DNA of 64,000 bases, taken from a virus. The notes beneath the pieces are model-generated. The model did not search any database. It was not told where the DNA came from and saw only the letters and a program-made list of their open reading frames with translations. Shown here in pieces: positions 7,533 to 26,582 of the stretch; within the stretch, counting starts at the first letter, position 1, and each line of letters starts with the position of its first letter. Made by a program: the position numbers and the translations under genes. The stretch spans positions 32,001 to 96,000 of IMG/VR virus record IMGVR_UViG_3300027811_000003; one strand, 5' to 3'.

Positions 7533-7993
7533 TTACCGTCCCTCTCGTAGATCAAACCCCTGAGATAGTGAACGAGATCAAGCGCTTCCTGATACGCGTC
7601 TACGAGAAAGTCACGCCCGTTGTTCGGTTGCAGATACGTGCCGTACTTCTTGAGACCAAACTCTGCACGTTCAGAGATGTCAGTTGCAACGAGATCCTTG
7701 ACTGCGGGAAGATCGTTCTTTATCGGAGTTGGCTGAGCAAACGAATCAGTCAACTTGTCGCACTTTTCTTTATACAGGTTGCTGAACTGTCCAGACGGCG
7801 GTGGCGGCCTTTCTGTGAATTGGTAACTATCGTTGACGCCTCCCTTGCAAAGATATCCCTCTCGCAATTCATCGTGAAGTTGTTCGCTAAAACTTTTTTC
7901 ACATAACTTCTTGTCAAGATTCTCCGCGAGCTTTGCTTTTTCGCACATCTTGTCACAACCATGAGGGTCTCCAAAAAGCCAATTCCAATTCAT
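7529..7993 (-). CDS. all-alpha nucleotide pyrophosphohydrolase-like protein
   Basis: C-terminal RAEFGLKKYGTYL...DAYQEALDLVHYL. Confidence 0.5.
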   Translation of the reverse strand: MNWNWLFGDPHGCDKMCEKAKLAENLDKKLCEKSFSEQLHDELREGYLCKGGVNDSYQFTERPPPPSGQFSNLYKEKCDKLTDSFAQPTPIKNDLPAVKDLVATDISERAEFGLKKYGTYLQPNNGRDFLVDAYQEALDLVHYLRGLIYERDGK

Positions 7994-8640
7994 ATTCTTG
8001 CTCCTTGCTCGTTAACTTCGTGGAAATAGACAAAGATCAACGGACACACCTTCATCAGCTCGTCCTCGATCATCGTGGCGATCTCTCTCATCTGCGGATT
8101 AGCTGCCTTTGAAGTTCTCAAGTTGATGAAGTGCACCCACTCTCTGAAGTTTGCCGTCATGACGATCTCTGTCTTGAGACACGTCGGAAGAACTGAGCGA
8201 GCGATCTGCGGAGTCACGCCAGTTAAAAGCAAATTTAAGTACGTTTGTTCTGAAATTTGACACGCTGACCTCCAACAATCAGATTGAGTGAAAGTCAATC
8301 CTGGTGGTTCTACCACAGAAATTTCATTACCGAACTTTTCTTTGTTGTACGCGCAGTATCTCGTGCTCTCTTGACTGTAGCTCGCGATTCGATGTCTGAC
8401 GATCTCGTGCGAAACTCCTCTGTCACACAAGATGTGAAACGTCGCAGACGCGTGTTCGATCACTGACATGTGATTTTTGTTGAGACAACTTTCAACGAGT
8501 CTCTCGGCAGTTCCAGGACCGATCTTGTCTTCACTCTTGTAACAAGTTCTAGCAGCGCGTTCTATCAACTTTAAAGAATCTTGTGTGACAGAAAGCAACT
8601 CTACGCTTTGTTTTACGATCTTCAAGCTTCGTCCTTCCAC
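7990..8640 (-). CDS. thyX: FAD-dependent thymidylate synthase
   Basis: HMSVIEH, RGVSHEIVRHRIASYSQESTRYC (RHRx7S signature), NFREWVHFINLR. Confidence 0.95.
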   Translation of the reverse strand: MEGRSLKIVKQSVELLSVTQDSLKLIERAARTCYKSEDKIGPGTAERLVESCLNKNHMSVIEHASATFHILCDRGVSHEIVRHRIASYSQESTRYCAYNKEKFGNEISVVEPPGLTFTQSDCWRSACQISEQTYLNLLLTGVTPQIARSVLPTCLKTEIVMTANFREWVHFINLRTSKAANPQMREIATMIEDELMKVCPLIFVYFHEVNEQGARI

Positions 8641-9715: not shown

Positions 9716-9931
9716 TCACTTCTTTTTGAATTTGCACCCTGTCGTATGACCGTTAGACATCAGATCGCGTATGTCACACGTGCAACTGTTGTCTTCAATC
9801 TCAAAGACGACCAAATGCTCGTCGCACAAATCGACGTCGACATTGTACATCGTCTGAGACATGCTTTTCTTCTTGCCGCAGTTGACGCACTCGTAACCGT
9901 CAGAGACAGTTTTCCATTTGTGATACGTCAT
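9716..9931 (-). CDS. small Cys/His zinc-binding protein
   Basis: HKW...CVNCG...CTC...GHTTGC. Confidence 0.55.
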   Translation of the reverse strand: MTYHKWKTVSDGYECVNCGKKKSMSQTMYNVDVDLCDEHLVVFEIEDNSCTCDIRDLMSNGHTTGCKFKKK

Positions 9932-10380
9932 GCACAGTCTCCGTTGAAATCGTTTACGCTTCCAACATATCTATGGATGTCGATCCCGACTTTTTTCAAC
10001 AGTTCAAAACCTTCTGTCTTTCTGTAGTCGTTGAAATACACGACCTGCGAGATGTCTGCTTGTATGATCCGTTTAGCGCACACGAAACAAGGACAAGTCG
10101 TCGTGTAAAGCTTCTTCACTGACGGATCGTTGTAGTTAAGCTTGATGACAGCGTTCTCTTCAGCGTGAAGACAACAGCATTGTCCAGGGTTTATTTCTCC
10201 GTTGGGAGTTTCGCAGATGTTCTTTCCTCCCTTGTAATTTCCGTTGTATCCCATCGACAACACTCTGCAGTTGTCGTCAGACACGATCACGCAGCCTACG
10301 CTAGCCCTTTGACAAGTGCTTCGTTTCGAGAGATGGACGGCGAACGTCATCCAAATCTCGTCCCACTCAGGTCTATCCAT
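9928..10380 (-). CDS. dCMP deaminase
   Basis: RSTCQRASVG, GYNG, HAEENA, PCFVCAKRI. Confidence 0.92.
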   Translation of the reverse strand: MDRPEWDEIWMTFAVHLSKRSTCQRASVGCVIVSDDNCRVLSMGYNGNYKGGKNICETPNGEINPGQCCCLHAEENAVIKLNYNDPSVKKLYTTTCPCFVCAKRIIQADISQVVYFNDYRKTEGFELLKKVGIDIHRYVGSVNDFNGDCA

Positions 10381-10382
10381 CG

Positions 10383-10706
10383 TCAGGCGATCTCGACATT
10401 CGTGTTGTCGATCACGAAGCAAGTGGCGACGAGCTCACCGCGACTCAACGACATGTTAGATCCTCCAGTGACGATAAGAGTGTGCAACTCGGCTCCCGCT
10501 GGAATGACTTCACAAGTTGACCCGTAAAAGCTTTGAACTATGACGGGAAGATTGCAAAACACGCCAAGCTTGATCGACTTCGTTCCTCTAGTGTTGATGT
10601 CGATTGGAGAGAACAGCTCGAACGGTCCGCCTTGTCTGTTTGACTTCTTGGGATTAACTCCGTCAGTATTCCTAAACGTCACCTTCGTCATCTTGAAAAC
10701 AGGCAT
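10383..10706 (-). CDS. hypothetical protein, degenerate dUTPase-like beta fold
   Basis: FELFSP...SIKLG...RGELVA loosely resembles trimeric dUTPase without catalytic motifs. Confidence 0.35.
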   Translation of the reverse strand: MPVFKMTKVTFRNTDGVNPKKSNRQGGPFELFSPIDINTRGTKSIKLGVFCNLPVIVQSFYGSTCEVIPAGAELHTLIVTGGSNMSLSRGELVATCFVIDNTNVEIA

Positions 10707-10731
10707 CTTGATTTCCTCTTTCTTTGTTTCG

Positions 10732-11856
10732 TTATTTCGCTGCTTTTTCGAGCTCGTCGACAAAAAACTTGACATCCATGAAACCAAGTTTTTCCACATT
10801 CTTTTCCCTCAGCTTCTCTTTCTCTGCTCTAGATAACTTCGACATTCTCTCAACGACGTCTATCATATCTAGACCGTCCTTAGCCACAAATTCGTCAAGA
10901 ACGTATTGACTTATTCCGTTTGCGCTCGCGAGTCCGATCGGAAGAGTGCCAAACAAAATCGCTTCCCAAGGTCTAGGAGTTATGAACCCAGATTCAAGAT
11001 ACGATCTCTTCGCGAGCAATGGAACTCCGACTGCTGTCCCGTAAGCGTCTCTGAAGCCGCTCGTCGTGATCCTGTCACAATATTTAACGTTCGGCCAACG
11101 AGCCCTGCAATCGTCGACAGTTTTCAGCCAATTACCGTAGAACTCGACCTGATAAGGAAACGCGTCTGACACAGGCTTTATCCATTCGTCAATCACGTCG
11201 TCTCTCTCGTACCTACTGCCAACATACACCAGCTTTCTGTTTGGGTCTGGAAACATCGGCGACCACTGCAGAAGGTCTGAAACAACAGTTGGTGGTTCTA
11301 TCCTAACTCTGTCTTTGTGTAAACGCCGAGGCCTCGAGGAGGTTTCGAACACAACGTCAGGTTGCCACATGATTTCATCTTGCTCTGTCAGCTTGTGGTC
11401 GAGGTCCCAAACAATGATCTTCGTTTTCGTTTGCTTGTAGTGGTTCAGCAATTCGACTTGTCTGTGCAAGTCAGGTTGATGTTTGAACGAATCGAAGTCA
11501 AGATCTCCGTTTTCTTTCACGTCACAATTTCTGCCGTTGATCGGGAACCGCCACTCGATCAAAAGCACGTCAAGCTCTGGCAACATCTGCGACGAGCCCT
11601 GAGTGTGCATGATGTTTTCGTACGCAGACAAGCGTTTCTGCTGAGAGAACGCCGAAAACGCACGCTCGTGGAATGACTTGTAAGCTGGATAATCTCTGTC
11701 CTTCTGCATCGCGAAGACCTGGTGTCCACGACGCTGAGCTTCCCAGATTATCGACCACCCGTATGTCGCGTTCCCGTCTGGAGACGACACTTCGTTGTGG
11801 TTATCGTCGAGTTTAACGTCAGCGAGAAATCCCCAAAACGAATAGCCAATCCTCAT
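10732..11856 (-). CDS. GT-B glycosyltransferase, putative DNA glycosyltransferase
   Basis: MRIGYSFWGFL..PDG, WDLD, LVYVGSRYERD, GFITPRPWEA; BGT-like layout; sits among nucleotide-modification genes. Confidence 0.7.
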   Translation of the reverse strand: MRIGYSFWGFLADVKLDDNHNEVSSPDGNATYGWSIIWEAQRRGHQVFAMQKDRDYPAYKSFHERAFSAFSQQKRLSAYENIMHTQGSSQMLPELDVLLIEWRFPINGRNCDVKENGDLDFDSFKHQPDLHRQVELLNHYKQTKTKIIVWDLDHKLTEQDEIMWQPDVVFETSSRPRRLHKDRVRIEPPTVVSDLLQWSPMFPDPNRKLVYVGSRYERDDVIDEWIKPVSDAFPYQVEFYGNWLKTVDDCRARWPNVKYCDRITTSGFRDAYGTAVGVPLLAKRSYLESGFITPRPWEAILFGTLPIGLASANGISQYVLDEFVAKDGLDMIDVVERMSKLSRAEKEKLREKNVEKLGFMDVKFFVDELEKAAK

Positions 11857-12008
11857 TTACGTGTCCATTTTGGAAATTTCGCAGGACGTTCGTTGCCAGC
11901 GCTACCCCAATACATGACACCTATTTCAGTTTCTCCTGGTTCGCCGACGACGACGTAAATCCTGAAGCCAGTGTAACAGAGCCATTTATTTATCGACCAA
12001 AGTTTCAT
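11853..12008 (-). CDS. 51-aa hypothetical protein (not in ORF track)
   Basis: MKLWSINKWLCYTGFRIYVVVG...; ATGA overlaps at both ends. Confidence 0.5.
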   Translation of the reverse strand: MKLWSINKWLCYTGFRIYVVVGEPGETEIGVMYWGSAGNERPAKFPKWTRK

Positions 12009-12592
12009 TTTGTTCCTCTGTTGAATCCGCACTTGTATCTGATTGAAAAATCGAATCCAAATTCTTCAACGTCTCTCAATCCCTTCTTGATCTCTGGAAT
12101 CTCTAAGTCTAAGTCGTTTAAGAAATCGTCAGTATAGAATCGGATCGTCTTGCAGGCAGTCCAATTACAGAAATCGTGGTACGTCGTGTGGATTTCTTGC
12201 ATCTTTTCGAGTGGAACGACTTCGTCTTTGACAGAAGCGTAGCTATTTCGCATCGGGATGATGATCACCGTGCCCAAGTCGGCGAATGCTTCGTCGACGT
12301 CGCATAGCACAACTTCGTCAGTCTTCCTCTTGAAGACCTTGGAATAACAAAACTCAGATGGAAACCCACGGTCGAGGACCACGCTATATCCCGTTTGTTT
12401 CAAGAACGCGACTGAATAAGTCTGGTCGTAGCGTAGGGCGTTCACAAACGCACCAGGGACTTTCCAATTCTGGTGTTGTGTGTCCATCCTGAAGTACGGG
12501 ATCCTGTATCGACGCGACAGCTCTTTGGCGATCTGAGTCTTTCCGCACCCGTCGGGCCCTTCAAGCATGAATATTCTTTGTTTTCGTTTCAT
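12005..12592 (-). CDS. dNMP (thymidylate-type) kinase
   Basis: LEGPDGCGKT P-loop; VLDRGFPSEFCY. Confidence 0.85.
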   Translation of the reverse strand: MKRKQRIFMLEGPDGCGKTQIAKELSRRYRIPYFRMDTQHQNWKVPGAFVNALRYDQTYSVAFLKQTGYSVVLDRGFPSEFCYSKVFKRKTDEVVLCDVDEAFADLGTVIIIPMRNSYASVKDEVVPLEKMQEIHTTYHDFCNWTACKTIRFYTDDFLNDLDLEIPEIKKGLRDVEEFGFDFSIRYKCGFNRGTK

Positions 12593-12593
12593 G

Positions 12594-13652
12594 TCACTCC
12601 TTGAACAATCCGGCCCAAACAGACATCGCAGAACCCAGCGTATGAAAATAATCGTCGTACTCGCTGAACTTAGGGTAATCAACAACGAAATCAGCGATGT
12701 GAAGCGCCAGCTGCTCGTAACACGACACGGGATCATTTCCAACGAGAACGAGCTTGTCGACGTGCTCCCACATAAATTCATTTACCTCTAGACCGTTAGC
12801 TTCCTTCTTGAGATTCGTAAACGGGTTTGACGCACGTTCGTGATGGATGTACGGAAGACCTGAGGTCACGATGAGGCCCAAGTGATCGACGATCTTCTTC
12901 ATGAAGATTCCCGACCATATGTCGCCGAACCTGTCGAACGGCAGCACTTCAAGATATTTCGTAGTCATGTTGTTGCCCAACGACTTGCCCATCATCAAGT
13001 GGTACGTCAAAACTGCGATCTCTCTAGAAAACGCCACGTTCATTCCGCACATCGGGAAATAAAATCCAGCTGGAATGACTTGAGTAGTAAACGAGAACTT
13101 CTCCTTAGCTGGATTGACAAGCTGAGTCGGGGCATCGTAGTCGAGAACGTTTGTCCACAGCCCGTGGTTAAGCACTGCTCGTCTTGCTCCGACATTGAAA
13201 TACGGAATCCCACGAGGTTTTACGTTACTGAGTGTGCTGTGCCACTTAGTCAATCCACCCTTCATGAACTTGAGATGCTCGTTCACGAAAGCCCTTCCAT
13301 CGTAAGTGATGCCTTCAGCTTCTGACGTGGGATAACAATCGTCGTCCAACGTGATCACGTACTTGTATCCCTGCTTCCAGGCTTCGTAATATCCGAACGA
13401 CCTCACTGTGTCTGAACGACGAGGAATGATCCAACTTGAGTCTCCCAGTTGAGCGTCTATCTCTTCCCACGAGAAATGACCCAGCTTACACGTCGCTCCT
13501 TGCAAGTTGAACGTTTTGCTATCGTTGTCCTCGACGACGAGCAAGTCGACGACGTCGAACAACTTGATCTTGTTCCAGCGTTCGATAAAATCATACAAGC
13601 ACTTCTCTCTGATCGACGGCACGACAAGACACACTTCATTGTTAGAACTCAT
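12594..13652 (-). CDS. RGP / UDP-arabinopyranose mutase-like protein (GT75 family)
   Basis: RSFGY, LDDDCYP, RGIPY, HGLWTNVLDYDAPTQL, PMCGMNVAF, RFGDIWSG, GLPYIHHERASNPFTNLKKE match plant RGP motifs. Confidence 0.85.
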   Translation of the reverse strand: MSSNNEVCLVVPSIREKCLYDFIERWNKIKLFDVVDLLVVEDNDSKTFNLQGATCKLGHFSWEEIDAQLGDSSWIIPRRSDTVRSFGYYEAWKQGYKYVITLDDDCYPTSEAEGITYDGRAFVNEHLKFMKGGLTKWHSTLSNVKPRGIPYFNVGARRAVLNHGLWTNVLDYDAPTQLVNPAKEKFSFTTQVIPAGFYFPMCGMNVAFSREIAVLTYHLMMGKSLGNNMTTKYLEVLPFDRFGDIWSGIFMKKIVDHLGLIVTSGLPYIHHERASNPFTNLKKEANGLEVNEFMWEHVDKLVLVGNDPVSCYEQLALHIADFVVDYPKFSEYDDYFHTLGSAMSVWAGLFKE

Positions 13653-13860
13653 TTATTCTCTTTCCTCCAACGATTTTTAGAACATGCTTCATCGCTTCAC
13701 GAAGTTCAAACGGACCGTCACGTCCCTCGTCGCGGTTAACAAACCACACGCCGTCCACGAAACTAATGTCAGCCACCTTGCTCTGTAAGGCTGAACCAGT
13801 GACAGAGTTGTCGTGACACGACATGTTGCCGTATCCGTCTTCGATCCAGTTAACTATCAT
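13642..13860 (-). CDS. hypothetical protein
   Basis: 72-aa ORF from MIVNWIED, overlaps at both junctions. Confidence 0.5.
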   Translation of the reverse strand: MIVNWIEDGYGNMSCHDNSVTGSALQSKVADISFVDGVWFVNRDEGRDGPFELREAMKHVLKIVGGKRINEF

Positions 13861-14576
13861 GACTTCTTCTCCCACAGTGCAGGGTGTCCGTTGTACGGTG
13901 ACTTGAGTCCTCGAAGCTTCCAATACCTCTCGAAACCGTTAGCACGCAGTATCGCGTTGAACGGACGCTTGGCGTTGTCACGTGGAACGTCTCTTCCCTC
14001 GAGAGTGTACACGTCGAAGTGACCTGGACTGACGATTCCAAAAGTGCTAGCGTCGAGATATTGCTTCGGCTTGACGACGTCGAGCAACTCTTGAATTCCC
14101 TTGAATGGATCCTTGATGTGCTCGAACGTCTCCTGAGCGAGCAACAGATCGCAGTCACGCTCGATCTTGTCGACGACCTTGACGTTCGACAAGTTCAGAC
14201 GTCTAGCCAGCTCTGACGCCGCGTCACGTTGCTTCGGAGCGATGTTGTGTGTGACGCATTCAGCGTCAGGAAACACCGTGGCAAGCAAACACGCAGACAT
14301 ACCGATCCCGCCGCAGTAGTCGAACACTCGCTTCGGTTTCAGCAACAAGTCGTGCTTGACGCAGTACTCGACGTCAGACCAGCTGCGAACTGTCCACGAG
14401 TTCAACGCGAGGTACATGTAGTCTGGATGATCGTAGAAGCTAAAGTCTGTCTGACCAGAGCCGTCCCACACTTTCTGAAACTCTTGTTCCTTGGCGACGA
14501 TCTCTTCCTTCGTCGGCACCTTTCCCAACACGATGTCAGAAGCGATCGCGTAAATGTTCTTACAACGTTTGTTCAT
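13857..14576 (-). CDS. class I SAM-dependent methyltransferase
   Basis: VFDYCGGIG motif I; DLLLAQETFEHIKDP. Confidence 0.8.
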   Translation of the reverse strand: MNKRCKNIYAIASDIVLGKVPTKEEIVAKEQEFQKVWDGSGQTDFSFYDHPDYMYLALNSWTVRSWSDVEYCVKHDLLLKPKRVFDYCGGIGMSACLLATVFPDAECVTHNIAPKQRDAASELARRLNLSNVKVVDKIERDCDLLLAQETFEHIKDPFKGIQELLDVVKPKQYLDASTFGIVSPGHFDVYTLEGRDVPRDNAKRPFNAILRANGFERYWKLRGLKSPYNGHPALWEKKS

Positions 14577-14803
14577 ATCAAACTCCTCGTGAGTTTTGAA
14601 AAAATCAAAAATCTAGCCCACGCTAGATACGCAGCTGAACTGCCAGGTAAGATAAAAAAGTGACTGTATGCTTCTGCGCGAGCACGTTTGTCGTAACGAT
14701 TTACACCGTCATGATAACAACAGTTTATCACAGCAGCCTCATTACGACGAGTTCCTGAACGAAGTGTACAAGCTTTGAGAGTTGCAAATAATACGACATT
14801 CAT
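14573..14803 (-). CDS. small hypothetical protein, paralog of 15025..15213
   Basis: Shared LKxCTLR...YDKxARAxA...LPxxSA. Confidence 0.5.
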   Translation of the reverse strand: MNVVLFATLKACTLRSGTRRNEAAVINCCYHDGVNRYDKRARAEAYSHFFILPGSSAAYLAWARFLIFSKLTRSLI

Positions 14804-14812
14804 TTCGTCGTT

Positions 14813-15028: not shown

Positions 15029-15213
15029 TGTCTCACCAATACAAAATATCGTGCTGATGTAGCTGGCAACGTGTATGTGCTTTCTGCTTGTGCACGTGCT
15101 TTCTTATCGTAACAAACGACAACGTCACGATAAGAAACAACGAAGTTTTCGTGATAAACGTGACGCGTTATTGCACGAAGTGTGCAAGTTTTAAGAATTA
15201 CAAACAATATCAT
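15025..15213 (-). CDS. small hypothetical protein, paralog of 14573..14803
   Basis: ATGA overlap with DnaE-C stop; paralogy. Confidence 0.5.
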   Translation of the reverse strand: MILFVILKTCTLRAITRHVYHENFVVSYRDVVVCYDKKARAQAESTYTLPATSARYFVLVRQ

Positions 15214-16295
15214 GTTTCAACTGAGTCCAAGTCTATCATGTATCCTTGAGCTGAATTCATCGAGTGCGCGAACCCTGGCTTTCCAACTACAAACCCGCCG
15301 TCTTCATCTCCAAGCTTTCTGTTGAACGTAGCTAAGTAGACGCTCGACACCTTGGTTATCGGCTTGATCCACTTCCATATCGTCGAAAAGCACGGCGCGT
15401 CGAACGGGACGTTGTTCTTGTCTTCAAACGTCAAGAACGCCATCATCTGACCGTTTCGCTGCGGCTTCTCGAAGATCCTCTTGACGACGACTGGAATGAC
15501 ACCGACCTCCCAATCGCTCTCGACGAAGTGGTCGTGTCCCTCGAATATGTTGTCAGCTCCAACGACTGCGTCGATCTTCTTGTCGCGATCCAAGATCTCG
15601 AACGGAGAGCCGCGGAGAGAGAAACCGAACAGCTCGTTTTCAAACGCGACCTTTTCATGGAGTTGATAGTCAGGAATTCCCAACGGTGTGTTGAAGTATC
15701 TTACATAATCTTCCCAACAATGTGAACCTTCTTTTTTCCCTCTCGTCTTCTTTTTGTATTCCTTGTTGTCGTCAAGAAACGTGAACTTCACTTCAAGCTC
15801 TTTCATGTTTGAGTGCAGACAATCGAACGCTCCAGCCTTGATCAGCGGAGAGATCGCAGTCTTGCTTACGCCAGAACGAATGACGAAGTCTATGAAGTCC
15901 GTGTACGGTTGATTAGAAACGATCTTCTCGATCGCAGCGGGACCGACGCCGATCACAGAGCTGAGAGCTAACCTGATGATGTCTCCTTCTATGACATGGT
16001 TTGCCTTACTCGAGTTGACATCGACGGGAAGCAACTTGATGCCTGCGCGCTTGATGTCACCTACGTATTGTTGTAACTCTCCCGACTGACCTTTGGTTAG
16101 CACTGCGGCATACCACTCCATCGGATAGTACGTGGCTAGGTAAGCACACTGCATCGTCATGACTGAATACGCGTCTGAGTGCGAGTTAGAAGTCAAGAGA
16201 CCGTTAGACAGGAAGAATTGGTGATCAGGGTGAGCGAGCTCGACGTCGAATGTCTGATGCTTGCCGATGTTCTTAGCGTAGATTATTTTTGGCAT
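15210..16295 (-). CDS. dnaE: DNA polymerase III alpha, C-terminal part, preceded by split C-intein
   Basis: 37-aa C-intein ending TSN, then SHSDAY..YLATYYPMEWYAA, LLPVDVNSS, HhH, OB-fold MAFLTFED. Confidence 0.93.
   Translation of the reverse strand: MPKIIYAKNIGKHQTFDVELAHPDHQFFLSNGLLTSNSHSDAYSVMTMQCAYLATYYPMEWYAAVLTKGQSGELQQYVGDIKRAGIKLLPVDVNSSKANHVIEGDIIRLALSSVIGVGPAAIEKIVSNQPYTDFIDFVIRSGVSKTAISPLIKAGAFDCLHSNMKELEVKFTFLDDNKEYKKKTRGKKEGSHCWEDYVRYFNTPLGIPDYQLHEKVAFENELFGFSLRGSPFEILDRDKKIDAVVGADNIFEGHDHFVESDWEVGVIPVVVKRIFEKPQRNGQMMAFLTFEDKNNVPFDAPCFSTIWKWIKPITKVSSVYLATFNRKLGDEDGGFVVGKPGFAHSMNSAQGYMIDLDSVET
16185..16295 (-). mobile_element. split intein C-fragment
   Basis: MPKIIYAKNIGKHQTFDVELAHPDHQFFLSNGLLTSN|S: blocks F/G. 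Confidence 0.9.
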
Positions 16296-16306
16296 GAAAA
16301 AGAACC

Positions 16307-16558
16307 TTAATCTGACAAGCAACATTTTTTCATCAAACGAAGTAAATCAATAATGCCAATATATTCGTCTTGATTTCCACGAACTGTATTTTTAATCTTT
16401 TTAATATTTTCCTTTGACGAAATATCTAAATCTTCAAAAAATTCGTATTCACGAATTTTGTTTGCCAGTCTTTCAAATGCGCGATTTGGATCTGCACCTT
16501 TTTCAATTTTTTCGATTGTCTCATCTATAAAAATTGCTAAAGCATCAATACTTGTCAT
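16307..16558 (-). CDS. AT-rich hypothetical protein inside the split dnaE locus
   Basis: 83-aa ORF, AGGAG RBS, overlaps endonuclease stop. Confidence 0.6.
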   Translation of the reverse strand: MTSIDALAIFIDETIEKIEKGADPNRAFERLANKIREYEFFEDLDISSKENIKKIKNTVRGNQDEYIGIIDLLRLMKKCCLSD

Positions 16559-17531
16559 ATGCTTCTCCTACCTTGTAGATTCCAGGAATTTGATTTTCTA
16601 CTAAAGACTTTATTTGTTCTAAGACTCTTTGAGAGAATGAACCACCTTGACGATGATAGTAATCTTCGTAAGACACACGAACGATTGCGTATCCAGAAGC
16701 AGACAACACTTCGTTTAGTTCGTTGTCATGTACTTTAGTCTTTCCCAAATCTTGTCCTGCTCTAAATTTTCTGAAATGACACGGTCCATCGAATTCGACT
16801 ATAATCTTCTTTGTCAGTTGCAAGACGTCTATCTGTCTTCTTCTTGTCTTGTTGCTGAACAATTCGTTCTTGATTTGCTGATTGTGCTTAAATCCAGAAT
16901 CAATCTTCTTGCATTCTCTAAACAAAATCAATTGCGGCTTGCTAACAAACGTGTTATGCATCGCGACTATACACTTTTGATAAAAATCTTCAGGTTTTTC
17001 ATCTCTCCAATTCTGTAAAGCTGTAGACCTGGCTTCTTGAATGTCTTGACGTGCTGACGTTTTTATCGCAGTTTCAGATTCTTTCTTTCTACCATCTTTT
17101 GATTTGGCCCAAGCCGTGATAGTCATCTTGGACAATTCCTTTCTACGCTCTATCTCTTTTGGATTTGATAAGATGGCAGCACTGACAGATTTTCCTATGT
17201 TACTTTTCCAAGTCTCAAGCTTCCCACGTTCTATCATCCTTGGATACGCGAGTGCTCCGCTCTTTGCGTTTATGCCAGCACGCCACCTCGCATAAATTTC
17301 GCATGTCTTTCGATGAATTTTTAGATCTGGATTCGTGCCAGCGAACCCAAAGAATTCAGAGCCGCATCTGCAAACGTGTTGATTTATACAACTTTCGTAA
17401 TGCGTTCGCTCATTTCTGATAGAACATCCACACCATCTGCAAGAGACGCTACTTCTAGATCTCTTGCCATTATCTCTGAGATCGGAAGCATTTCTCCCGT
17501 CGTCGTTCTGAATTTGTGGTTCGGTGTGCAT
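16545..17531 (-). CDS. free-standing homing endonuclease (Vsr/DUF559-like)
   Basis: IDVL...IIVEFDGPCH...HD...GYAIVRV; lies between dnaE halves; start uncertain. Confidence 0.8.
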   Translation of the reverse strand: MHTEPQIQNDDGRNASDLRDNGKRSRSSVSCRWCGCSIRNERTHYESCINQHVCRCGSEFFGFAGTNPDLKIHRKTCEIYARWRAGINAKSGALAYPRMIERGKLETWKSNIGKSVSAAILSNPKEIERRKELSKMTITAWAKSKDGRKKESETAIKTSARQDIQEARSTALQNWRDEKPEDFYQKCIVAMHNTFVSKPQLILFRECKKIDSGFKHNQQIKNELFSNKTRRRQIDVLQLTKKIIVEFDGPCHFRKFRAGQDLGKTKVHDNELNEVLSASGYAIVRVSYEDYYHRQGGSFSQRVLEQIKSLVENQIPGIYKVGEAYDKY

Positions 17532-17734
17532 CTTACTACGCTCCCGTCGTCAAACGTAAATTCTATAAGCTCGAGTTCACCATGATCATGCAAAGCTGTC
17601 ACAGGCTCGAGGAAGATCTTACCACTGAATTCGTCGCGGGAAAATAGGAGATCACCAGGTTTGATATCTTTTATTTCTTTCCGTGCAACTATTTCATTTT
17701 CAAAAACGTTAATGGTTTCATTGGCTTGCAAACT
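17384..17734 (-). mobile_element. split intein N-fragment (Ser1)
   Basis: FNK|SLQANETI, EIKDIKPGD, block B CTPNHKF. Confidence 0.9.
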
Positions 17735-20212
17735 TTTATTAAAACCGTACGACCCCCATCCGAGGAGATTTTTCCAAAGCTTGTCTGCTTTGCTTTTTTC
17801 AAGTCCATTCTCTTCACATCCGCTCAAGAATATTGCCGTAAGTCTATCACGTTCAGATTTTACGAACTCTGGCGTTTTGCTCTTGTCCTTCTTGAGGAGA
17901 ATTTTCCGTACGGCGTTCACGTCTTTCCAGCTCATTTTGCCAAGAACGTTACAAATCTTCATAAGTTGTTCCTGAAAAATAAGACAAGATCTCGTTGGTT
18001 TCAAGATCTCTTCGAGCAACGGATGATCATACGTTATGTCTTCGGGATGATGTTTGTTGTGAGCGTACAGCTTGTCAAATCCGCCCGAAAGAGGCCCTGG
18101 ACGATATATCGAACAAATCGCAGACACGTCAACAAACGTGTCAGGCTCTACTTGTTTCGCCAGTCTGCGAATTCCAGAATTCGTGAATTGAAATATCCCA
18201 GCAAAATTGCCATCGTGGAAAACATGCTTCAAAACTTTCTGATCGTTCAAATCCATGTTTTTAGAGCGAATCGTCTCTCTAAGCTCAGCAAAAGTCTTGC
18301 CAGTGTTTTTCGCGATCAGGTCCAAACAAAAGTGAATGATCTTCAAAGTCGCGATCGACAGAACGTCAATTTTACAGAATCCCATAGACGAAACGTTTTT
18401 GTTGACGATGCCCTCAGTGAACGCAGCCTGCGTGATGTATTGACCGTAAGTCGGGCTGTCCTTCTTAGTGTCCTTCACTCTGAGCAACGCAGTTTCTGCG
18501 GGAAGGTTGTCGCCAACGATAGTTCCAGCAGCGTGCCTTCCCATCTGTCTTATACGTCCGTACAGCGACGGGAAGTGCGTCATCATCTCAGGTCTGTCTG
18601 AAACGAGTTTGTTGAACGTGGGACTCACTCTCTTGATATCGTCGAGAGTGATCACGAGAGTGCTCTTGTCGTTGTCGATATAGAGAACTTTCAACTCTTT
18701 CTCTATTTTTCTGTTCAAGAGATTTATCTCGTTGTGATCGACGTCGTAGATGCGTCCAAGATCTTTCAGCAGACCCTTGACTTGAAACGTGCCGTACGTC
18801 GACAGACACGCGACGTTGTCTTCGCCGTACATCTTTCGAAGCAACTCTTTCGTCTCGTTCACGTCTTCGAAGTCTACATCGATGTCTGGAAGTTCTGAGC
18901 GATTTGGATCGAGGAATCTCTCGAACATCAGATCATATTTGATCGAGTCCAAGTCTGTTATACCGAGGCAATAGCAAGCGAGAGACCCGCAGCTCGAGCC
19001 TCGCCCTTCGCCCACGAGCATTGTCTTCTTCGCTTCTTCTATGATTCGCTGAACCATCAAGAAGTAATTCTGAAATCCCTTGTCCTTGATCACTTTGAGT
19101 TCACTGAGTAACCTCGCCTTGTACTTCTCGTCATGGGCAAGTCCAAGCTTCTTGAGTCCGTCTATCGACCTCTTCATGAGCTCCATCACTGGATCTTCGT
19201 ATGGAAGAGACGGCAGTCGTTGATGAGTGTCTGGTTCAAAATTCTCCACCAACGAATCGATCAACAACGTGTTTTCCATCGCTTCAATAGCAACCTTCGG
19301 CTCTAGCGTTCCGCCAAATTTCAAGAACGATTGCCACATCTCTTCTGGAGACTTGATGTACAGTTGTCTGACTCTGAAGTCCCAGTCAGGGCCTCGAGTG
19401 GCCAACGTGACCTTCTTTCGTAGCATGTACAAGATCTCTTGTGCTTGCCACTCCTCAGGCTTCGTGTAATGACTGTCAGTCGTCACAGTTAAAGGAATTC
19501 CCGTGACATCGTGAACTTTGACTAGCCAGTCGTTCAACACTCGTTGGTCGTCTGCTTCGTTGAGTTGCAGCTCCAAGAAGAACCTTCCCTTGCCGAAGAT
19601 CCTCTCAAAGTCTTGCGCCTGTGCGACGACGTCTTGAAACGTTCCATTCCCTGAAATCATGTCCCAAACCTTGAGAGCTATGATCCCACCCATGCACGCA
19701 GAAGTAGCGATCAGTCCCTTCGAATGCTCTGACAGCATCTTCTTGTCCATACGAGGCTTAGAATAGAAGCCGTACTTGTACGACTTGTAAACGAGTTGGT
19801 TGAGATTCGCGAGTCCTTCCAAACTAGACGCGAGAATGACCATATGACCTTTGCGATACAAGCTCTTAGCATCAGACTTCACTTTAGAGTTAGTGTCACG
19901 ATCAGCGTCGTCGTCGCTTCCTTCTCCGTCATCATCTTCGTCGTTTGTCTTGTTCTTCGCTCGCTCTTTCGCTATCCTCCACTCGTCAAGCGAATCGATG
20001 ACATAAGCCTCCACGCCGAAAATCGTCCTGACTCCGTGCTTCTTGCCAAACAGAAAAAAGTCCGCGTGACACGAATTGCCGCCGTGGTCAGTTATCGCGA
20101 TAGAACGAAGACCCTTGGCCTTCGCCGTCTTGATCATCTCTTCTGGCATAGCTAGAGAGTCTGCTATGGAAAATTGCGAATGGTTGTGCAGACTCGCGAA
20201 ATCTTTTATCAA
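17384..20212 (-). CDS. dnaE: DNA polymerase III alpha, N-terminal part, fused to split N-intein
   Basis: PHP LHNHSQFS/ITDHG, GRGS, PDIDVDF, GRHAAG, YRPGP, YGFNK. Confidence 0.96.
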   Translation of the reverse strand: MIKDFASLHNHSQFSIADSLAMPEEMIKTAKAKGLRSIAITDHGGNSCHADFFLFGKKHGVRTIFGVEAYVIDSLDEWRIAKERAKNKTNDEDDDGEGSDDDADRDTNSKVKSDAKSLYRKGHMVILASSLEGLANLNQLVYKSYKYGFYSKPRMDKKMLSEHSKGLIATSACMGGIIALKVWDMISGNGTFQDVVAQAQDFERIFGKGRFFLELQLNEADDQRVLNDWLVKVHDVTGIPLTVTTDSHYTKPEEWQAQEILYMLRKKVTLATRGPDWDFRVRQLYIKSPEEMWQSFLKFGGTLEPKVAIEAMENTLLIDSLVENFEPDTHQRLPSLPYEDPVMELMKRSIDGLKKLGLAHDEKYKARLLSELKVIKDKGFQNYFLMVQRIIEEAKKTMLVGEGRGSSCGSLACYCLGITDLDSIKYDLMFERFLDPNRSELPDIDVDFEDVNETKELLRKMYGEDNVACLSTYGTFQVKGLLKDLGRIYDVDHNEINLLNRKIEKELKVLYIDNDKSTLVITLDDIKRVSPTFNKLVSDRPEMMTHFPSLYGRIRQMGRHAAGTIVGDNLPAETALLRVKDTKKDSPTYGQYITQAAFTEGIVNKNVSSMGFCKIDVLSIATLKIIHFCLDLIAKNTGKTFAELRETIRSKNMDLNDQKVLKHVFHDGNFAGIFQFTNSGIRRLAKQVEPDTFVDVSAICSIYRPGPLSGGFDKLYAHNKHHPEDITYDHPLLEEILKPTRSCLIFQEQLMKICNVLGKMSWKDVNAVRKILLKKDKSKTPEFVKSERDRLTAIFLSGCEENGLEKSKADKLWKNLLGWGSYGFNKSLQANETINVFENEIVARKEIKDIKPGDLLFSRDEFSGKIFLEPVTALHDHGELELIEFTFDDGSVVRCTPNHKFRTTTGEMLPISEIMARDLEVASLADGVDVLSEMSERITKVV

Positions 20213-24349: not shown

Positions 24350-24704
24350 TCTTCAACCTTTCGAAAACGATCTTGTTCTTCTTGCAGTATTCTTCATAAA
24401 GTTGTTCTGCATCGATTCCAGACAAGATACAAAGTTCGACGAAATACGCGAACGCATCTCCGATCTCTTCTTTGTAATGATCAATGTCAAGAGCAGTGTC
24501 GTCTGTTGACCGATGAATCTTATTTCGTAAAGTGAAGCTCGCCTCACAAAGTTCTTCTATCACGTTGAACACAGTTTCCTTCGCGAGACGTTGTCCAAAC
24601 TTTGTCTGCAAAGGAACTGGAAATTCAGGTAGCTTGTCATCTGCAACGAGCTCATTCATGAAACATTTCTGCTTGAAGAACATGTCTTCTAACTTGTCTG
24701 TCAC
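24339..24704 (-). CDS. MazG/dimeric dUTPase-dCTPase-like pyrophosphatase
   Basis: EELCEA...KEEIGDAFAY...YCKKN; directly follows the ThyA-like gene. Confidence 0.75.
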   Translation of the reverse strand: MTDKLEDMFFKQKCFMNELVADDKLPEFPVPLQTKFGQRLAKETVFNVIEELCEASFTLRNKIHRSTDDTALDIDHYKEEIGDAFAYFVELCILSGIDAEQLYEEYCKKNKIVFERLKSGY

Positions 24705-25675
24705 TTTTTCTTCTCCTCTTTGTCTCTCTTGCTTCTGTGATCGTTGAGCTGCTTGATTATCCATTTGGCTGCCCCCTTGAAGTTCATCGATGTCGTGTGG
24801 TGAACCAAACCCTCACGGAGGCCTGATTCTATATCTAGCAAGTCTCTGATATCCCAGGCGTCGCTGAGAGGTTGCATCGTTCCCGTTGAACAATGGCCCT
24901 CAAAAGAACTATCCAATTCTTCAACGACTTTCTTAGCTGTCTTCCAATCTCGTTCGTACAGATGCATCGACCCAGCCGAATGATGATATTCGCCGAGCTT
25001 AAGATTTATCATGCCGCTTAGCTGAAGAGTCTTGAGCATCATTTCCTGTAAGAGAGTGAAACTGAAAACATCGTAAGGCAGCCCCCACCACACGTCGTTT
25101 GAACGCATAGTAACATGCAAATGAAGTTTGCTTTTTCTTATGAAGAATTGCAAAGACAAAGTGCAAGGGACGTCTTTCGATTGTCGTAACGACGCGTAAA
25201 CGACATCTTTAGGCTGATTGATTGTGATCACGGCTCTACGTGAATCGTTGTCGTCAAGAAGCGTGTTCGTCACAGCGTCCCATTGCGTGACAGGATTCGA
25301 TATTCCTTCGCTTGGATGATAAAAATTTTCAGTTAGCATCCTGTGACCGTAAGCTGAATTGAGTGTCTCTCCGTCGTCTGAGAAATCCTTCATGCGTTTG
25401 TTGTAGTACAACATCGTTTCCAAATCGTTTCTACCTGCAGCATACCACAGAAATTCTCCACAAGCGAATCCGTAGTTCACTTTGCGTACTTTAGAAGTTA
25501 CAAGTCTAGCTCGAGGATTTGACAACGTGATGTCGAAGAACAGATTCTCCTTTATTTTCATGTCACGAGGGCTGCACGTAAATTCGCTGTGCTTAAGAAG
25601 CTCACGCAACACGTCATGATACACTTCGTTCATCGTGTCGCAAACAAGATTAGTTCCCAAACATTCAAATGCCAT
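24701..25675 (-). CDS. thymidylate-synthase-fold enzyme, probable dCMP hydroxymethylase/methylase
   Basis: AYGHR, SRRA, PCT, MRSNDVWWGLPYD (Asp in place of the TS Asn), SMHLYE. Confidence 0.85.
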   Translation of the reverse strand: MAFECLGTNLVCDTMNEVYHDVLRELLKHSEFTCSPRDMKIKENLFFDITLSNPRARLVTSKVRKVNYGFACGEFLWYAAGRNDLETMLYYNKRMKDFSDDGETLNSAYGHRMLTENFYHPSEGISNPVTQWDAVTNTLLDDNDSRRAVITINQPKDVVYASLRQSKDVPCTLSLQFFIRKSKLHLHVTMRSNDVWWGLPYDVFSFTLLQEMMLKTLQLSGMINLKLGEYHHSAGSMHLYERDWKTAKKVVEELDSSFEGHCSTGTMQPLSDAWDIRDLLDIESGLREGLVHHTTSMNFKGAAKWIIKQLNDHRSKRDKEEKKK

Positions 25676-26582
25676 GTATGTCCTCTATCAATCTTTCTAG
25701 TATGTCTGAACTTATAGAATGACCTGCCGCTCTCTTATGCCCGCCGCCGCCGAACAGTTGCGCGAGCTTGGACACGTCGTAATCTCTTGACCTAAAGCTT
25801 ACACTTCCTTTCTCAACGTTTATCTGACATGCTACGTCCAAATCCTTTCTTCTAGCAAGAAGTCTGTTAAGCAACGGAGAAGTGTTGTTATCTGACGACA
25901 CGATGTACCCAACGCTTATTTCGCTTCCGTCTATCGTGAGTTGCTTTTCGCGCACTTTTCCGATCAAATCTTCTATTATTCGTTCTTTCCTGTCTCCGAT
26001 CATCGACACAATTTCTTTTTCGTCTACGTCGAATATGCTTTCTCTGTACACATTTCTACCGTAACGAAATCTATCTACGAAGTTGTCGCTTCCGACGAAA
26101 GCATGAAACGCAGACAAGTCATCCGACTCTGGAATTTTCTTTGTCCAGAGATCGTCATCCTGAATAATACGAGAAAGCTTGTACGAATAGTCATCTGACA
26201 ATTCGAGATAAAGCCTAAGCAATTCTGTGCCACATTTTTCTTGATCTATCAAGCACCAGCTTTCGTTTGTCAAGTGAGAAGCCGTGTTGTGATGGTCAAG
26301 AAGAACGCAGTTGCCTCTTTTTTCAAGCAACTTGTGGTCGTCGTGGTCCTTTGCAAACCCGACATCTGCAAAAATCAAAAACTTGTCATTTAAATCATGA
26401 AGATTTCTGTTTATGAACCTTCCAACTTCGCCAGCGTTTACTTCGTAGATGCTGCTTTTATCACCGCCAGCGCGCAAGAACATGATCTTCGCGCCGCTGC
26501 CGTCAAGACAATTCTTGTGAGTCACAAGCACTGCGTCTTCTATGTTTTGAAAACGAGGTAACGATTTTATTGAAGCCATCAT
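25665..26582 (-). CDS. DHH family phosphoesterase
   Basis: HKNCLDG, FAD, LDHH, GGGGHKRAAG. Confidence 0.9.
   Translation of the reverse strand: MMASIKSLPRFQNIEDAVLVTHKNCLDGSGAKIMFLRAGGDKSSIYEVNAGEVGRFINRNLHDLNDKFLIFADVGFAKDHDDHKLLEKRGNCVLLDHHNTASHLTNESWCLIDQEKCGTELLRLYLELSDDYSYKLSRIIQDDDLWTKKIPESDDLSAFHAFVGSDNFVDRFRYGRNVYRESIFDVDEKEIVSMIGDRKERIIEDLIGKVREKQLTIDGSEISVGYIVSSDNNTSPLLNRLLARRKDLDVACQINVEKGSVSFRSRDYDVSKLAQLFGGGGHKRAAGHSISSDILERLIEDIHGI

What the first reader, a model, noticed from the sequence alone, without database searches (positions are those of the whole stretch)
10732..14576. Plant-type UDP-arabinopyranose mutase (RGP) in a phage operon with glycosyltransferase, dNMP kinase and methyltransferase
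Seen: a tightly coupled run of SAM methyltransferase, small ORF, RGP-like protein (DDD, HGLW..DYDAPTQL, PMCGMN, ASNPF.NLKKE), dNMP kinase, small ORF and GT-B glycosyltransferase. Established: plant RGPs interconvert UDP-Arap and UDP-Araf; arabinosylated cytosines occur in RB69-like phages; a dedicated kinase is typical of modified-dNMP pathways. Inference: the phage makes an NDP-furanose donor, transfers it to modified cytosine in its DNA, and may O-methylate the sugar. This would be a mutase-based route to a possibly new hypermodified base.
Basis: partly seen in the sequence, partly recalled or inferred. Interest (0 to 1): 0.87.

Follow-up and report, generated by a model that had tools for sequence, protein, structure and literature searches.

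The report
Phage furanose-sugar DNA modification genes
An uncultured contractile-tailed phage (about 200 kb when complete) carries T4-style genes for making hydroxymethylcytosine DNA, plus a conserved trio (sugar-ring mutase, nucleotide kinase, sugar transferase) that probably caps that base with an unusual five-membered-ring sugar; no chemistry has tested this.

Summary
On the minus strand, 14576-10732 encodes a class I SAM methyltransferase, a 72-aa protein, a full-length GT75/RGP protein (PF03214, E 1.7e-46), a thymidylate-kinase/deoxynucleoside-kinase-fold kinase, a 59-aa ORF and a GT-B glycosyltransferase (AF2 pLDDT 94.8).

- **Mutase:** the GT75 protein keeps six of the seven residues whose mutation abolished activity in the bacterial mutase MtdL, plus both Mn2+ ligands.
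- **Conserved module:** mutase, kinase and transferase lie together in the replication/nucleotide block of 12 related IMG/VR loci (9 distinct).
- **Base:** that block also holds a MilA/gp42-like cytosine hydroxymethylase with the signature that predicts 5-hydroxymethyl-dCMP, not 5-hydroxy-dCMP.

Best reading (about 0.55): hydroxymethylcytosine DNA is glycosylated with a furanose whose donor the mutase makes.

- The enzyme is not specifically plant-type. It is equidistant from plant UAM and actinomycete MtdL, so the donor sugar cannot be inferred.
- The methyltransferase is absent from all 12 related loci, so it is an accessory.
- The RB69 precedent has since been revised to D-arabinofuranosyl-5-hydroxycytosine, made without a mutase.
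- A flavin-type mutase route is already proposed for Rhizobium phage RL38J1.

This scan has found the same module before on other phage genomes. I rate it a new variant of a known kind, untested.

The parts
12594..13652 (-). GT75 / RGP-family NDP-pyranose mutase (352 aa)
   Evidence: PF03214 E 1.7e-46, full length. PDB matches: MtdL 7yua 2.1e-19 and UAM 8cid 5.8e-19. Conserved residues: D81, D103-D105, R147, D171, R241, D244, H271, R273 (roles from PMC9937993).
12005..12592 (-). Thymidylate-kinase / deoxynucleoside-kinase-fold kinase, candidate dNMP kinase for the modified dCMP (195 aa from the ATG at 12592)
   Evidence: phrog_761 1.9e-9. Family profile matches YorR 2axp 1.1e-6 and dGK 2jas 1.1e-4 over full length. 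AF2 model with Foldseek matches YorR, TMPK and dNK, including 1w2h. Always lies between mutase and transferase in relatives.
10732..11856 (-). GT-B fold glycosyltransferase (374 aa), candidate DNA hydroxymethylcytosine glycosyltransferase
13642..13860 (-). 72-aa protein of unknown function directly upstream of the mutase
   Evidence: Weakly conserved: 25-31% identity, invariant W5, D8, H16, N18, W39. In three relatives (L003, L004, L007) a similar small gene sits directly upstream of the mutase; in L011 it lies about 700 nt upstream with another ORF between. ATGA overlap with the methyltransferase stop.
13857..14576 (-). Class I SAM-dependent methyltransferase (239 aa), lineage-specific accessory
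   Evidence: Methyltransf_11/23. Absent from 12 related loci. Only 6 homologues found. Atlas look-alikes are generic, mostly viral methyltransferases.
11853..12032 (-). 59-aa ORF between kinase and transferase; doubtful gene
   Evidence: No family and no relative in 13 loci. Only its overlap with the transferase start codon suggests it is translated.
10383..10799 (-). Small protein with a dUTPase / dCTP-deaminase-like fold (lead only)
   Evidence: No Pfam or PHROG hit. The Atlas structure search gives TM 0.63-0.71 to dUTPase/DCD clusters. Conserved after the transferase in L004, L007 and L011.
9928..10422 (-). dCMP deaminase
   Evidence: PF00383 3.8e-20; phrog_174 1.6e-45.
7990..8640 (-). ThyX flavin-dependent thymidylate synthase (canonical dTMP supply)
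   Evidence: PF02511 2e-53.
24701..25675 (-). ThyA-family cytosine C5-hydroxymethylase (predicted 5-hydroxymethyl-dCMP synthase)
   Evidence: PF00303 84.8 bits. Best PDB match is MilA CMP hydroxymethylase, 1.1e-38. DVPC and RSND..GLPYD motifs correspond to L143D, C146, D169 kept and N177D, invariant in 7 relatives. The diagnostic comes from PMC13326640.
24339..24764 (-). All-alpha NTP pyrophosphohydrolase (dUTPase_2/MazG-like), candidate dCTPase analogous to T4 gp56
   Evidence: PF08761 1.3e-5; phrog_12184 2.3e-13. Conserved beside the hydroxymethylase in relatives.
25665..26582 (-). DHH/DHHA1 phosphoesterase, conserved between the ribonucleotide reductase and the hydroxymethylase
   Evidence: PF02272 1.2e-7; phrog_4771 2.3e-29; synteny.
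15210..20212 (-). DnaE polymerase III alpha in two pieces with an intervening 328-aa ORF; it marks the replication module that the mutase follows in all relatives
   Evidence: tblastn to phage DnaE-like polymerases; HHH_6 in the C-terminal piece; synteny DnaE then mutase.

Best explanation
The phage replaces cytosine with a sugar-capped hydroxymethylcytosine through a T4-like pathway that uses an unusual sugar donor.

Before replication:
1. An NTP pyrophosphohydrolase (24339-24764) and possibly the DHH phosphoesterase supply dCMP.
2. The ThyA-family enzyme (24701-25675) converts dCMP to 5-hydroxymethyl-dCMP.
3. The kinase (12005-12592) phosphorylates it, host enzymes finish the triphosphate, and the phage DnaE incorporates it.
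4. dCMP deaminase and ThyX keep thymidine canonical.

After replication:
5. The GT75 enzyme (12594-13652), a Mn2+-dependent and flavin-free mutase, contracts a host NDP-pyranose to the NDP-furanose.
6. The GT-B transferase (10732-11856) moves the furanosyl group onto the hydroxymethyl oxygen in DNA. This would shield the genome from host nucleases.

What is shown: gene identities at family or fold level, intact catalytic residues of the mutase and the hydroxymethylase, and conserved synteny. What is inferred: DNA as the acceptor, the link between mutase and transferase, the kinase substrate and the sugar. Candidate donors are UDP-D-galactofuranose, UDP-L-arabinofuranose, or a GDP-L-fuco- or L-galactofuranose. 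The methyltransferase and the 72-aa protein are optional extras of unknown role.
For: 1. **Mutase.** PF03214 E 1.7e-46 over the full length. Alignment to MtdL, read with the mutagenesis in PMC9937993, shows six of the seven residues whose mutation abolished activity kept: D87/D109/R159/D195/R257/D260 correspond to D81/D103/R147/D171/R241/D244. The seventh, Q229, is M204. The Mn2+ ligands D111/H287 correspond to D105/H271, and R289 to R273. All of these are invariant in 35 phage homologues.

2. **Hydroxymethylase.** Best PDB match is MilA, 1.1e-38. Asp replaces N177 (cytosine specificity), Asp replaces L143 (hydroxymethyl product), and D169 is kept, so it is not the 5-hydroxy type. This holds in 7 of 7 relatives (criteria from PMC13326640).

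3. **Kinase.** TMPK/dNK fold. In RL38J1 a kinase with the same best PDB match (1w2h) carries the gene number just before a predicted DNA glycosyltransferase (gp214, gp215; PMC13326640).

5. **Synteny.** The order RNR, DHH, hydroxymethylase, NTP-PPase..., DnaE, mutase, kinase, transferase, dCMP deaminase (with ThyX seen downstream only in L004) recurs in 12 IMG/VR loci (9 distinct) at 43-57% identity.

6. **Literature.** No searchable paper links GT75 to phage DNA modification.
Against: - No chemistry exists and no cultured relative is known. INPHARED holds only one distant uncultured hit.
- The transferase shows no sequence-profile match to the T4 beta- or alpha-glucosyltransferase families in 41 members.
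- Its structural scores tie with ordinary GT4 enzymes acting on lipids and small molecules.
- The transferase family is acidic (median pI 5.9), which gives no hint of DNA binding.
- GT75 genes occur in non-DNA contexts in other phages. In the 595-kb phage LR756511 the gene sits with sulfotransferases, a methyltransferase and a lectin-like protein.
- Near-complete relatives carry further sugar-nucleotide enzymes and GT4 or heptosyltransferase-like genes elsewhere, which the mutase could serve instead.
- Q229 of MtdL, essential there, is Met here (plant enzymes have Ile).
- The kinase substrate is unknown.
Confidence: 0.55

Rival explanations
1. The mutase and the GT-B transferase build or decorate a non-DNA glycan, such as a virion protein, a host envelope polymer or a small molecule. 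The kinase between them is simply a thymidylate or dNMP kinase of the nucleotide-supply module. Any cytosine modification stops at hydroxymethylcytosine or is glycosylated by another enzyme.
For: - GT75 sits in a glycan-type operon with two sulfotransferases, a methyltransferase and an F5/8-type-C lectin-like protein in phage LR756511.
- Earlier notes of this scan report GT75 next to capsid genes in other phages (not checked here).
- The transferase ties structurally with GT4 enzymes, is acidic and has no T4 glucosyltransferase profile hit.
- Relatives carry other glycan genes.
Against: In 12 of 12 related loci the pair lies inside the replication and nucleotide block, split only by a nucleotide kinase and flanked by DnaE and dCMP deaminase. 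It is never beside structural genes. Wherever the upstream flank was readable (7 of 9 distinct loci), the hydroxymethylase is present with the cytosine signature intact.
Confidence: 0.2
2. The DNA is glycosyl-hydroxymethylcytosine, but the transferase uses an ordinary host pyranose donor such as UDP-glucose. The GT75 protein has another role: a self-glycosylating or transglycosylating protein, a second (GT-A-type) transferase that extends the sugar, or supplier to a different transferase.
For: - GT75 proteins also have autoglycosyltransferase activity, and plant RGPs hydrolyse or transfer from UDP-Glc without mutase activity (PMC9937993).
- The fold is GT-A-like with a DXD motif.
- The mutase family is about five times larger than the transferase family in the protein collection (1688 against 354 hits), so it pairs with other partners elsewhere.
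Against: Six of the seven residues required for mutase activity in MtdL are invariant. The strict mutase-kinase-transferase adjacency is most simply explained by a donor and user relation.
Confidence: 0.15
3. In this phage sub-lineage the pathway is extended: the SAM methyltransferase O-methylates the sugar, either on the donor or on DNA, giving a methylated furanosyl base.
For: - The methyltransferase stop overlaps the start of the 72-aa gene, which overlaps the mutase start, so the genes are probably co-translated.
- It is a small-molecule-type class I methyltransferase, not a DNA methyltransferase family.
- One 63%-identical homologue lies on a 5465-bp contig, the same length as the contig of a mutase homologue. 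This is suggestive only.
- An unrelated huge phage also has a Methyltransf_23 gene two genes from its GT75 gene.
Against: - It is absent from all 12 related loci and has only 6 homologues.
- It sits in a variable slot between DnaE and the mutase that holds unrelated cargo in other relatives.
- No substrate can be inferred.
Confidence: 0.1

Closest known systems
Phage T4 glucosyl-hydroxymethylcytosine pathway (gp56 dCTPase, gp42 dCMP hydroxymethylase, gp1 dNMP kinase, Cd dCMP deaminase, alpha- and beta-glucosyltransferases)
   Same: Same logic and the same set of enzyme roles: an NTP pyrophosphohydrolase, a ThyA-family cytosine hydroxymethylase with Asp at the N177 position, a nucleotide kinase, a dCMP deaminase, and a GT-B transferase that resembles T4 AGT and BGT in fold.
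   Different: None of the proteins is a close sequence relative of its T4 counterpart. The hydroxymethylase is nearest to MilA. The kinase has the TMPK/dNK fold, and T4 gp1 was not among its listed matches. The transferase has no BGT or AGT profile hit. T4 has no sugar-nucleotide mutase and uses host UDP-glucose directly.
Rhizobium phage RL38J1 / Pootjesviridae hexosyl-5-hydroxycytosine cluster with a phage UDP-galactopyranose mutase (PMC13326640)
   Same: A phage-encoded NDP-sugar pyranose-to-furanose mutase is proposed to feed a DNA glycosyltransferase. In that table a TMPK-like kinase (gp214) is numbered next to a glycosyltransferase (gp215). The best PDB matches overlap: 1w2h for the kinase, 7fg9 for a transferase.
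   Different: - The RL38J1 mutase is the flavin-dependent Glf/UGM type. Here it is the unrelated Mn2+-dependent GT75 type.
- The RL38J1 base is 5-hydroxycytosine (ThyA homologue with D169N). Here D169 is kept, which predicts 5-hydroxymethylcytosine.
RB69 / DLP3 arabinofuranosyl-5-hydroxycytosine (PMC13326640)
   Same: A furanose sugar on a C5-modified cytosine, made by a ThyA homologue plus a dNMP kinase plus DNA glycosyltransferases.
   Different: There the donor is built from ribulose-5-phosphate (isomerase, kinase/mutase, nucleotidyltransferase) and no pyranose mutase is involved. The base is 5-hydroxycytosine. No epimerase/dehydratase gene was found in this 113-kb contig, and the isomerase route was not searched for specifically.
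Bacterial GT75 mutases MtdL and Hyg20, and plant UAM/RGP (PMC9937993)
   Same: Same family (PF03214), with the same DXD, autoglycosylated Arg, Mn2+-binding His and sugar-binding Asp residues.
   Different: Those enzymes feed antibiotic or cell-wall biosynthesis. The phage clade has mixed specificity positions (Pro12 and Gly203 plant-like, Ser80-Asp81 MtdL-like) and sits in a DNA-metabolism operon.

Membership tests
GT75 / RGP (PF03214) NDP-pyranose mutases | Profile match above the curated cut-off over the full length | tested here: met
   159.4 bits against a cut-off of 23.8; profile positions 3-338 of 342. The search on the genome gave 159.5 bits.
GT75 / RGP (PF03214) NDP-pyranose mutases | DXD (DDD) motif and a conserved His that bind Mn2+ | tested here: met
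   D103-D104-D105 and H271 align to MtdL D109-D111 and H287. They are invariant in 35 homologues.
GT75 / RGP (PF03214) NDP-pyranose mutases | Autoglycosylated catalytic Arg (OsUAM1 R158 / MtdL R159) | tested here: met
   R147 in the PRG motif aligns to MtdL R159 and is invariant.
GT75 / RGP (PF03214) NDP-pyranose mutases | Sugar- and phosphate-binding residues required for mutase activity (MtdL D87, D195, R257, D260, Q229) | tested here: inconclusive
   D81, D171, R241 and D244 are present. Q229 is Met204 here; plant enzymes have Ile at this position and are active (PMC9937993).
GT75 / RGP (PF03214) NDP-pyranose mutases | Pyranose-furanose interconversion activity | not testable with these tools
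   Needs an enzyme assay.
Plant class-1 UDP-L-arabinopyranose mutase specifically | UDP-selective base pocket (Pro at MtdL T13, Asp at S86, Ser at D87) | tested here: not met
   Pro12 is plant-like, but positions 80-81 are Ser-Asp as in GDP-sugar-using MtdL, not Asp-Ser as in active plant RGPs (PMC9937993). PDB E-values are equal for MtdL and UAM.
T4-type dCMP hydroxymethylase (ThyA family, hydroxymethylating, cytosine-specific) | Catalytic Cys, Asp at the N177 position, acidic residue at the L143 position, Asp169 retained | tested here: met
   The DVPC and RSND..GLPYD motifs are invariant in 7 relatives. Criteria from PMC13326640.
5-hydroxy-dCMP synthases (RB69 gp48 type) | D169N substitution | tested here: not met
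   Asp is kept at this position in the window protein and in 6 relatives.
T4 DNA beta-glucosyltransferase (GT63) / alpha-glucosyltransferase (GT72) | Sequence-profile membership | tested here: not met
   No Pfam hit to either family at E up to 1 in 41 family members; only PF13524 in 9 of them. No tblastn hit in 50,697 phage records.
T4 DNA beta-glucosyltransferase (GT63) / alpha-glucosyltransferase (GT72) | Fold similarity that stands out from other GT-B enzymes | tested here: inconclusive
T4 DNA beta-glucosyltransferase (GT63) / alpha-glucosyltransferase (GT72) | Transfers sugar to hydroxymethylcytosine in duplex DNA | not testable with these tools
   Needs an assay.
dNMP kinase of modified-nucleotide pathways | P-loop NMP/dN kinase fold with a DR(x) motif | tested here: met
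   Invariant GxGKT and D74-R75. Profile matches YorR and dGK. Foldseek matches YorR, TMPK and dNK.
dNMP kinase of modified-nucleotide pathways | Phosphorylates 5-hydroxymethyl-dCMP | not testable with these tools
   Needs an assay.

The most novel reading that the evidence does not exclude
Every cytosine in this phage's DNA is replaced by a furanosyl-oxymethylcytosine whose donor comes from a metal-dependent GT75 mutase. That would be the first use of this enzyme family in nucleic-acid modification. In this sub-lineage the sugar would also be O-methylated by the adjacent SAM methyltransferase, giving a methylated sugar on a DNA base. The conserved 72-aa protein would act as a pathway cofactor.
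Probability: 0.08. Interest if true: 0.85.

Novelty: new variant of a known kind. Interest (0 to 1): 0.62.

Why it matters
Sugar-capped cytosines are a main way that large lytic phages escape restriction enzymes and CRISPR nucleases. They are also the targets of type IV restriction systems and of DNA glycosylases. The known donors are host UDP-glucose (T4) or arabinofuranose built from ribulose-5-phosphate (RB69); a flavin-type mutase is proposed for RL38J1.

A Mn2+-dependent GT75 mutase in a widespread clade of roughly 200-kb environmental phages would add a third, independent way to make a furanose donor. It probably also adds a new base (furanosyl-hydroxymethylcytosine), with consequences for which defence systems can see these phages. 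It would give the biochemically thin GT75 family its first role outside cell-wall and antibiotic synthesis.

The prediction can be tested directly by co-expression in E. coli followed by nucleoside LC-MS, the assay used in PMC13326640.

Tried and rejected

In particular I could not verify that methyltransferase homologue P0242 and mutase homologue P0113 share the 5465-bp contig. The listing of cluster members gave no accessions.
- Two of my calls were malformed and returned errors.

**Searches that found nothing**
- Megablast of 10 kb against INPHARED: no match.
- tblastn of the transferase against phages: no match.
- The search for related loci with the methyltransferase: nothing.
- tblastn of the methyltransferase and the 59-aa ORF against 13 loci: nothing.
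- PF01370 (epimerase/dehydratase) in the phage's own 113 kb: none. Pfam scans of 10 further ORFs found no sugar-nucleotide genes. The contig is only about 55% complete, so absence is not shown.
- Literature searches for RGP or GT75 with bacteriophage found only plant papers and one soil-virome listing of GT75 as an auxiliary metabolic gene.

**Tests that did not discriminate**
- Single-sequence PDB search with the kinase gave only P-loop matches. The profile and the model were needed.
- Reading the nucleotide or sugar specificity of the mutase from MtdL and plant specificity residues gave a mixed signature, so I dropped it.
- The promoter and terminator scan of 9800-15400 did not exceed shuffled expectation.
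- The transferase pI is acidic, which argues neither way strongly.

**Not run**
- Complex prediction, because I do not claim that any of these proteins bind each other.
- The search of protein representatives, the look-up of sequencing runs and read laying.

Full report
**Source and setting.** The window is bases 32001-96000 of a 113,289-bp IMG/VR virus record that CheckV rates 55% complete. Almost all genes lie on the minus strand. A tail sheath (phrog_23, 2.1e-59) marks a contractile-tailed phage. No cultured relative exists in INPHARED: megablast of 10 kb finds nothing, and the DnaE piece is at most 32% identical to actinophage DnaE-like polymerases.

**Checking the observation.**
- 13857-14576 is a class I SAM methyltransferase (Methyltransf_11, 25.1 bits against a cut-off of 21.2).
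- 12594-13652 matches PF03214 (RGP) at E 1.7e-46 over positions 3-338 of 342. All four quoted motifs are present.
- 12005-12592 is a P-loop kinase. It hits phrog_761 'thymidylate kinase' at 1.9e-9. A profile of ten family members matches SPbeta YorR (2axp, 1.1e-6) and deoxyguanosine kinase (2jas, 1.1e-4) over their full lengths. An AF2 model (pLDDT 84.5) is closest to YorR, thymidylate kinases and deoxynucleoside kinases.
- 10732-11856 has no Pfam or PHROG hit. Its AF2 model (pLDDT 94.8, pTM 0.92) is an unambiguous GT-B glycosyltransferase.
- Gene junctions are overlaps or single-base spacers.

**The mutase.** The solved relatives are the actinomycete GT75 mutase MtdL (7yua, 2.1e-19) and a plant-type UDP-arabinopyranose mutase (8cid, 5.8e-19). 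With a family profile the scores are 93.8 and 80 bits.

I read the MtdL alignment against the mutagenesis in PMC9937993. Six of the seven residues whose mutation abolished mutase activity are present:

| MtdL | This protein |
|---|---|
| D87 | D81 |
| D109 | D103 |
| R159 (the autoglycosylated Arg) | R147 |
| D195 | D171 |
| R257 | R241 |
| D260 | D244 |
| Q229 | M204 (not conserved) |

The Mn2+ ligands D111 and H287 correspond to D105 and H271, and R289 to R273. All of these are invariant among 35 phage homologues. At the Q229 position active plant enzymes carry Ile.

The specificity positions are mixed. Pro12 and Gly203 are plant-like. Ser80-Asp81 match MtdL, where S86D abolishes GDP binding; in AtRGP2 the reverse change S91D abolishes UDP-Galf formation. 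I therefore call it an apparently active GT75 NDP-pyranose mutase, but not a plant-type UDP-arabinose enzyme. The donor could be UDP-Gal, UDP-L-Ara, a GDP-L-sugar or something else.

**Context.**
- Eleven kilobases upstream lies a ThyA-family gene (24701-25675; PF00303, 84.8 bits). Its best solved relative is MilA, a cytosine C5-hydroxymethylase (1.1e-38).
- Lee et al. (PMC13326640) give diagnostic positions. Asp at N177 selects cytosine. An acidic residue at L143 goes with hydroxymethylation. D169N marks the newly recognised 5-hydroxy-dCMP synthases of RB69, DLP3 and RL38J1. The window protein and six relatives all have D143, C146, D169 and D177, which predicts 5-hydroxymethyl-dCMP.
- Beside it are an all-alpha NTP pyrophosphohydrolase (PF08761; phrog_12184, 2.3e-13), a DHH phosphoesterase, a ribonucleotide reductase and an MT-A70 DNA methyltransferase.
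- Downstream of the transferase are a small dUTPase/DCD-fold look-alike, dCMP deaminase, ThyX and an NT5C deoxyribonucleotidase.
- This is the T4 logic, carried out with different proteins.

**Conservation.** The mutase has 1688 homologues at 90% clustering. The best 120 are 50-60% identical, and many lie on contigs of 185-207 kb. The transferase has 354. About three dozen contig lengths are shared between the two lists, and NCBI locus tags place the two genes close together on a 197-kb contig.

Twelve IMG/VR loci (9 distinct) fetched with a family profile show the same order: RNR, DHH, hydroxymethylase, NTP-PPase..., DnaE, mutase, kinase, transferase, dCMP deaminase (ThyX was seen downstream only in L004), at 43-57% mutase identity. 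So the core module is mutase, kinase and transferase, embedded in the replication block.

The methyltransferase is in none of these loci, by blastp or tblastn, and has only six homologues. The slot between DnaE and the mutase carries different cargo in different relatives.

In that slot I found a weakly conserved small protein. In three relatives it sits directly upstream of the mutase, and in a fourth about 700 nt upstream.

**Counter-evidence.** The only INPHARED hit, the 595-kb uncultured phage LR756511 (39% identity), has its GT75 gene in an operon with a Methyltransf_23 enzyme, two sulfotransferases and an F5/8-type-C lectin-like protein. It has no kinase and no relative of this transferase there. 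GT75 in phages is therefore not tied to DNA as such.

Two near-complete relatives (196.5 and 185.5 kb) each carry three SDR sugar-nucleotide enzymes, plus GT4 and heptosyltransferase-like genes in other regions. None was found in this phage's 113 kb. These facts keep a non-DNA target alive as a rival (0.2).

**Literature.**
- PMC13326640 revises RB69's modification to D-arabinofuranosyl-5-hydroxycytosine, made from ribulose-5-phosphate.
- The same paper proposes a flavin-type UDP-galactopyranose mutase feeding DNA glycosylation in RL38J1. Its Table 1 numbers a TMPK-like kinase (gp214) next to a glycosyltransferase (gp215). A mutase route therefore has a predicted precedent.
- That precedent uses an unrelated enzyme family and a different base.
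- No searchable paper links GT75/RGP to phage DNA modification. One soil-virome paper lists phage GT75 as a carbon-cycle auxiliary gene.

**Earlier notes of this scan.** The same module has been reported, with the same reading, on other phage genomes: 37 findings in at least 33 genomes mention it. My tests were run independently on this window and agree. What this window adds is the methyltransferase and the small protein, and the result that the former is an accessory.

**Verdict.**
- Observation confirmed; interpretation partly supported.
- Most likely (0.55): a T4-like hydroxymethylcytosine pathway whose sugar is a furanose supplied by a GT75 mutase.
- It is a new variant of a known kind, untested and with no cultured representative.
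- Interest 0.62.

Noticed in passing
window 13642-13860 (-); L003:9759-9992, L004:9752-9985, L007:9765-9989, L011:9063-9311: A 72-82-aa protein family (invariant W5, D8, H16, N18, W39 and a GPF motif) lies directly upstream of the GT75 gene in this phage and three relatives, and about 700 nt upstream in a fourth. It has no Pfam or PHROG family and its function is unknown.
   Followed up: partly
L022 (LR756511.1 193987-218910), ORFs 10447-15130: In a 595-kb uncultured phage the GT75 homologue (40% identity) sits in an operon with a Methyltransf_23 enzyme, two sulfotransferases and an F5/8-type-C lectin-like protein. This points to a methylated or sulfated glycan rather than a DNA pathway.
   Followed up: partly
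window 15210-20212 (-) and 26579-29299 (-): DnaE is in two pieces with a 328-aa ORF between them. The ribonucleotide reductase large subunit carries an intein with an HNH domain (PF14890, PF13392). The replication genes of this phage are heavily invaded by selfish elements.
   Followed up: no
window 14573-15213 (-): Three short ORFs (62-76 aa) fill the space between DnaE-C and the methyltransferase. They mark this slot as a cargo hotspot.
   Followed up: no
window 10383-10799 (-): A small protein after the transferase has a dUTPase / dCTP-deaminase-like predicted fold (Atlas TM 0.63-0.71) but no sequence-family hit. It is conserved in L004, L007 and L011.
   Followed up: partly
window 23759-24349 (-): An MT-A70-family DNA methyltransferase (PF05063, 2.7e-25) sits next to the NTP pyrophosphohydrolase. 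The phage may also carry N6-methyladenine.
   Followed up: no
window 6371-6961 (-): An NT5C-type 5'(3')-deoxyribonucleotidase (PF06941, 1.3e-30) is conserved in relatives. A dNMP phosphatase is unexpected in a phage that otherwise channels dNMPs into DNA.
   Followed up: no
L016, L018, L020 (G001) and L015, L017, L019, L021 (G002): Near-complete relatives (196.5 and 185.5 kb) each carry three SDR sugar-nucleotide epimerase/dehydratase-like genes, paired with GT4-like or heptosyltransferase-like genes, and one carries a nucleotidyltransferase. All score below the equivalog cut-offs, so their specificities are unknown.
   Followed up: partly
window 35746-36291 (-): A 181-aa protein has a sub-threshold match to the ATLF metalloprotease-like domain (PF07737, 26.1 bits against a cut-off of 27.4).
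   Followed up: no
L023:18845-19732 (-) (genome 18845-19732, outside the window): A radical SAM protein (PF04055, 2e-8) lies next to a 697-aa ORF that an earlier first-reader note of this scan calls an FtsH-like protease; I did not check that ORF.
   Followed up: no
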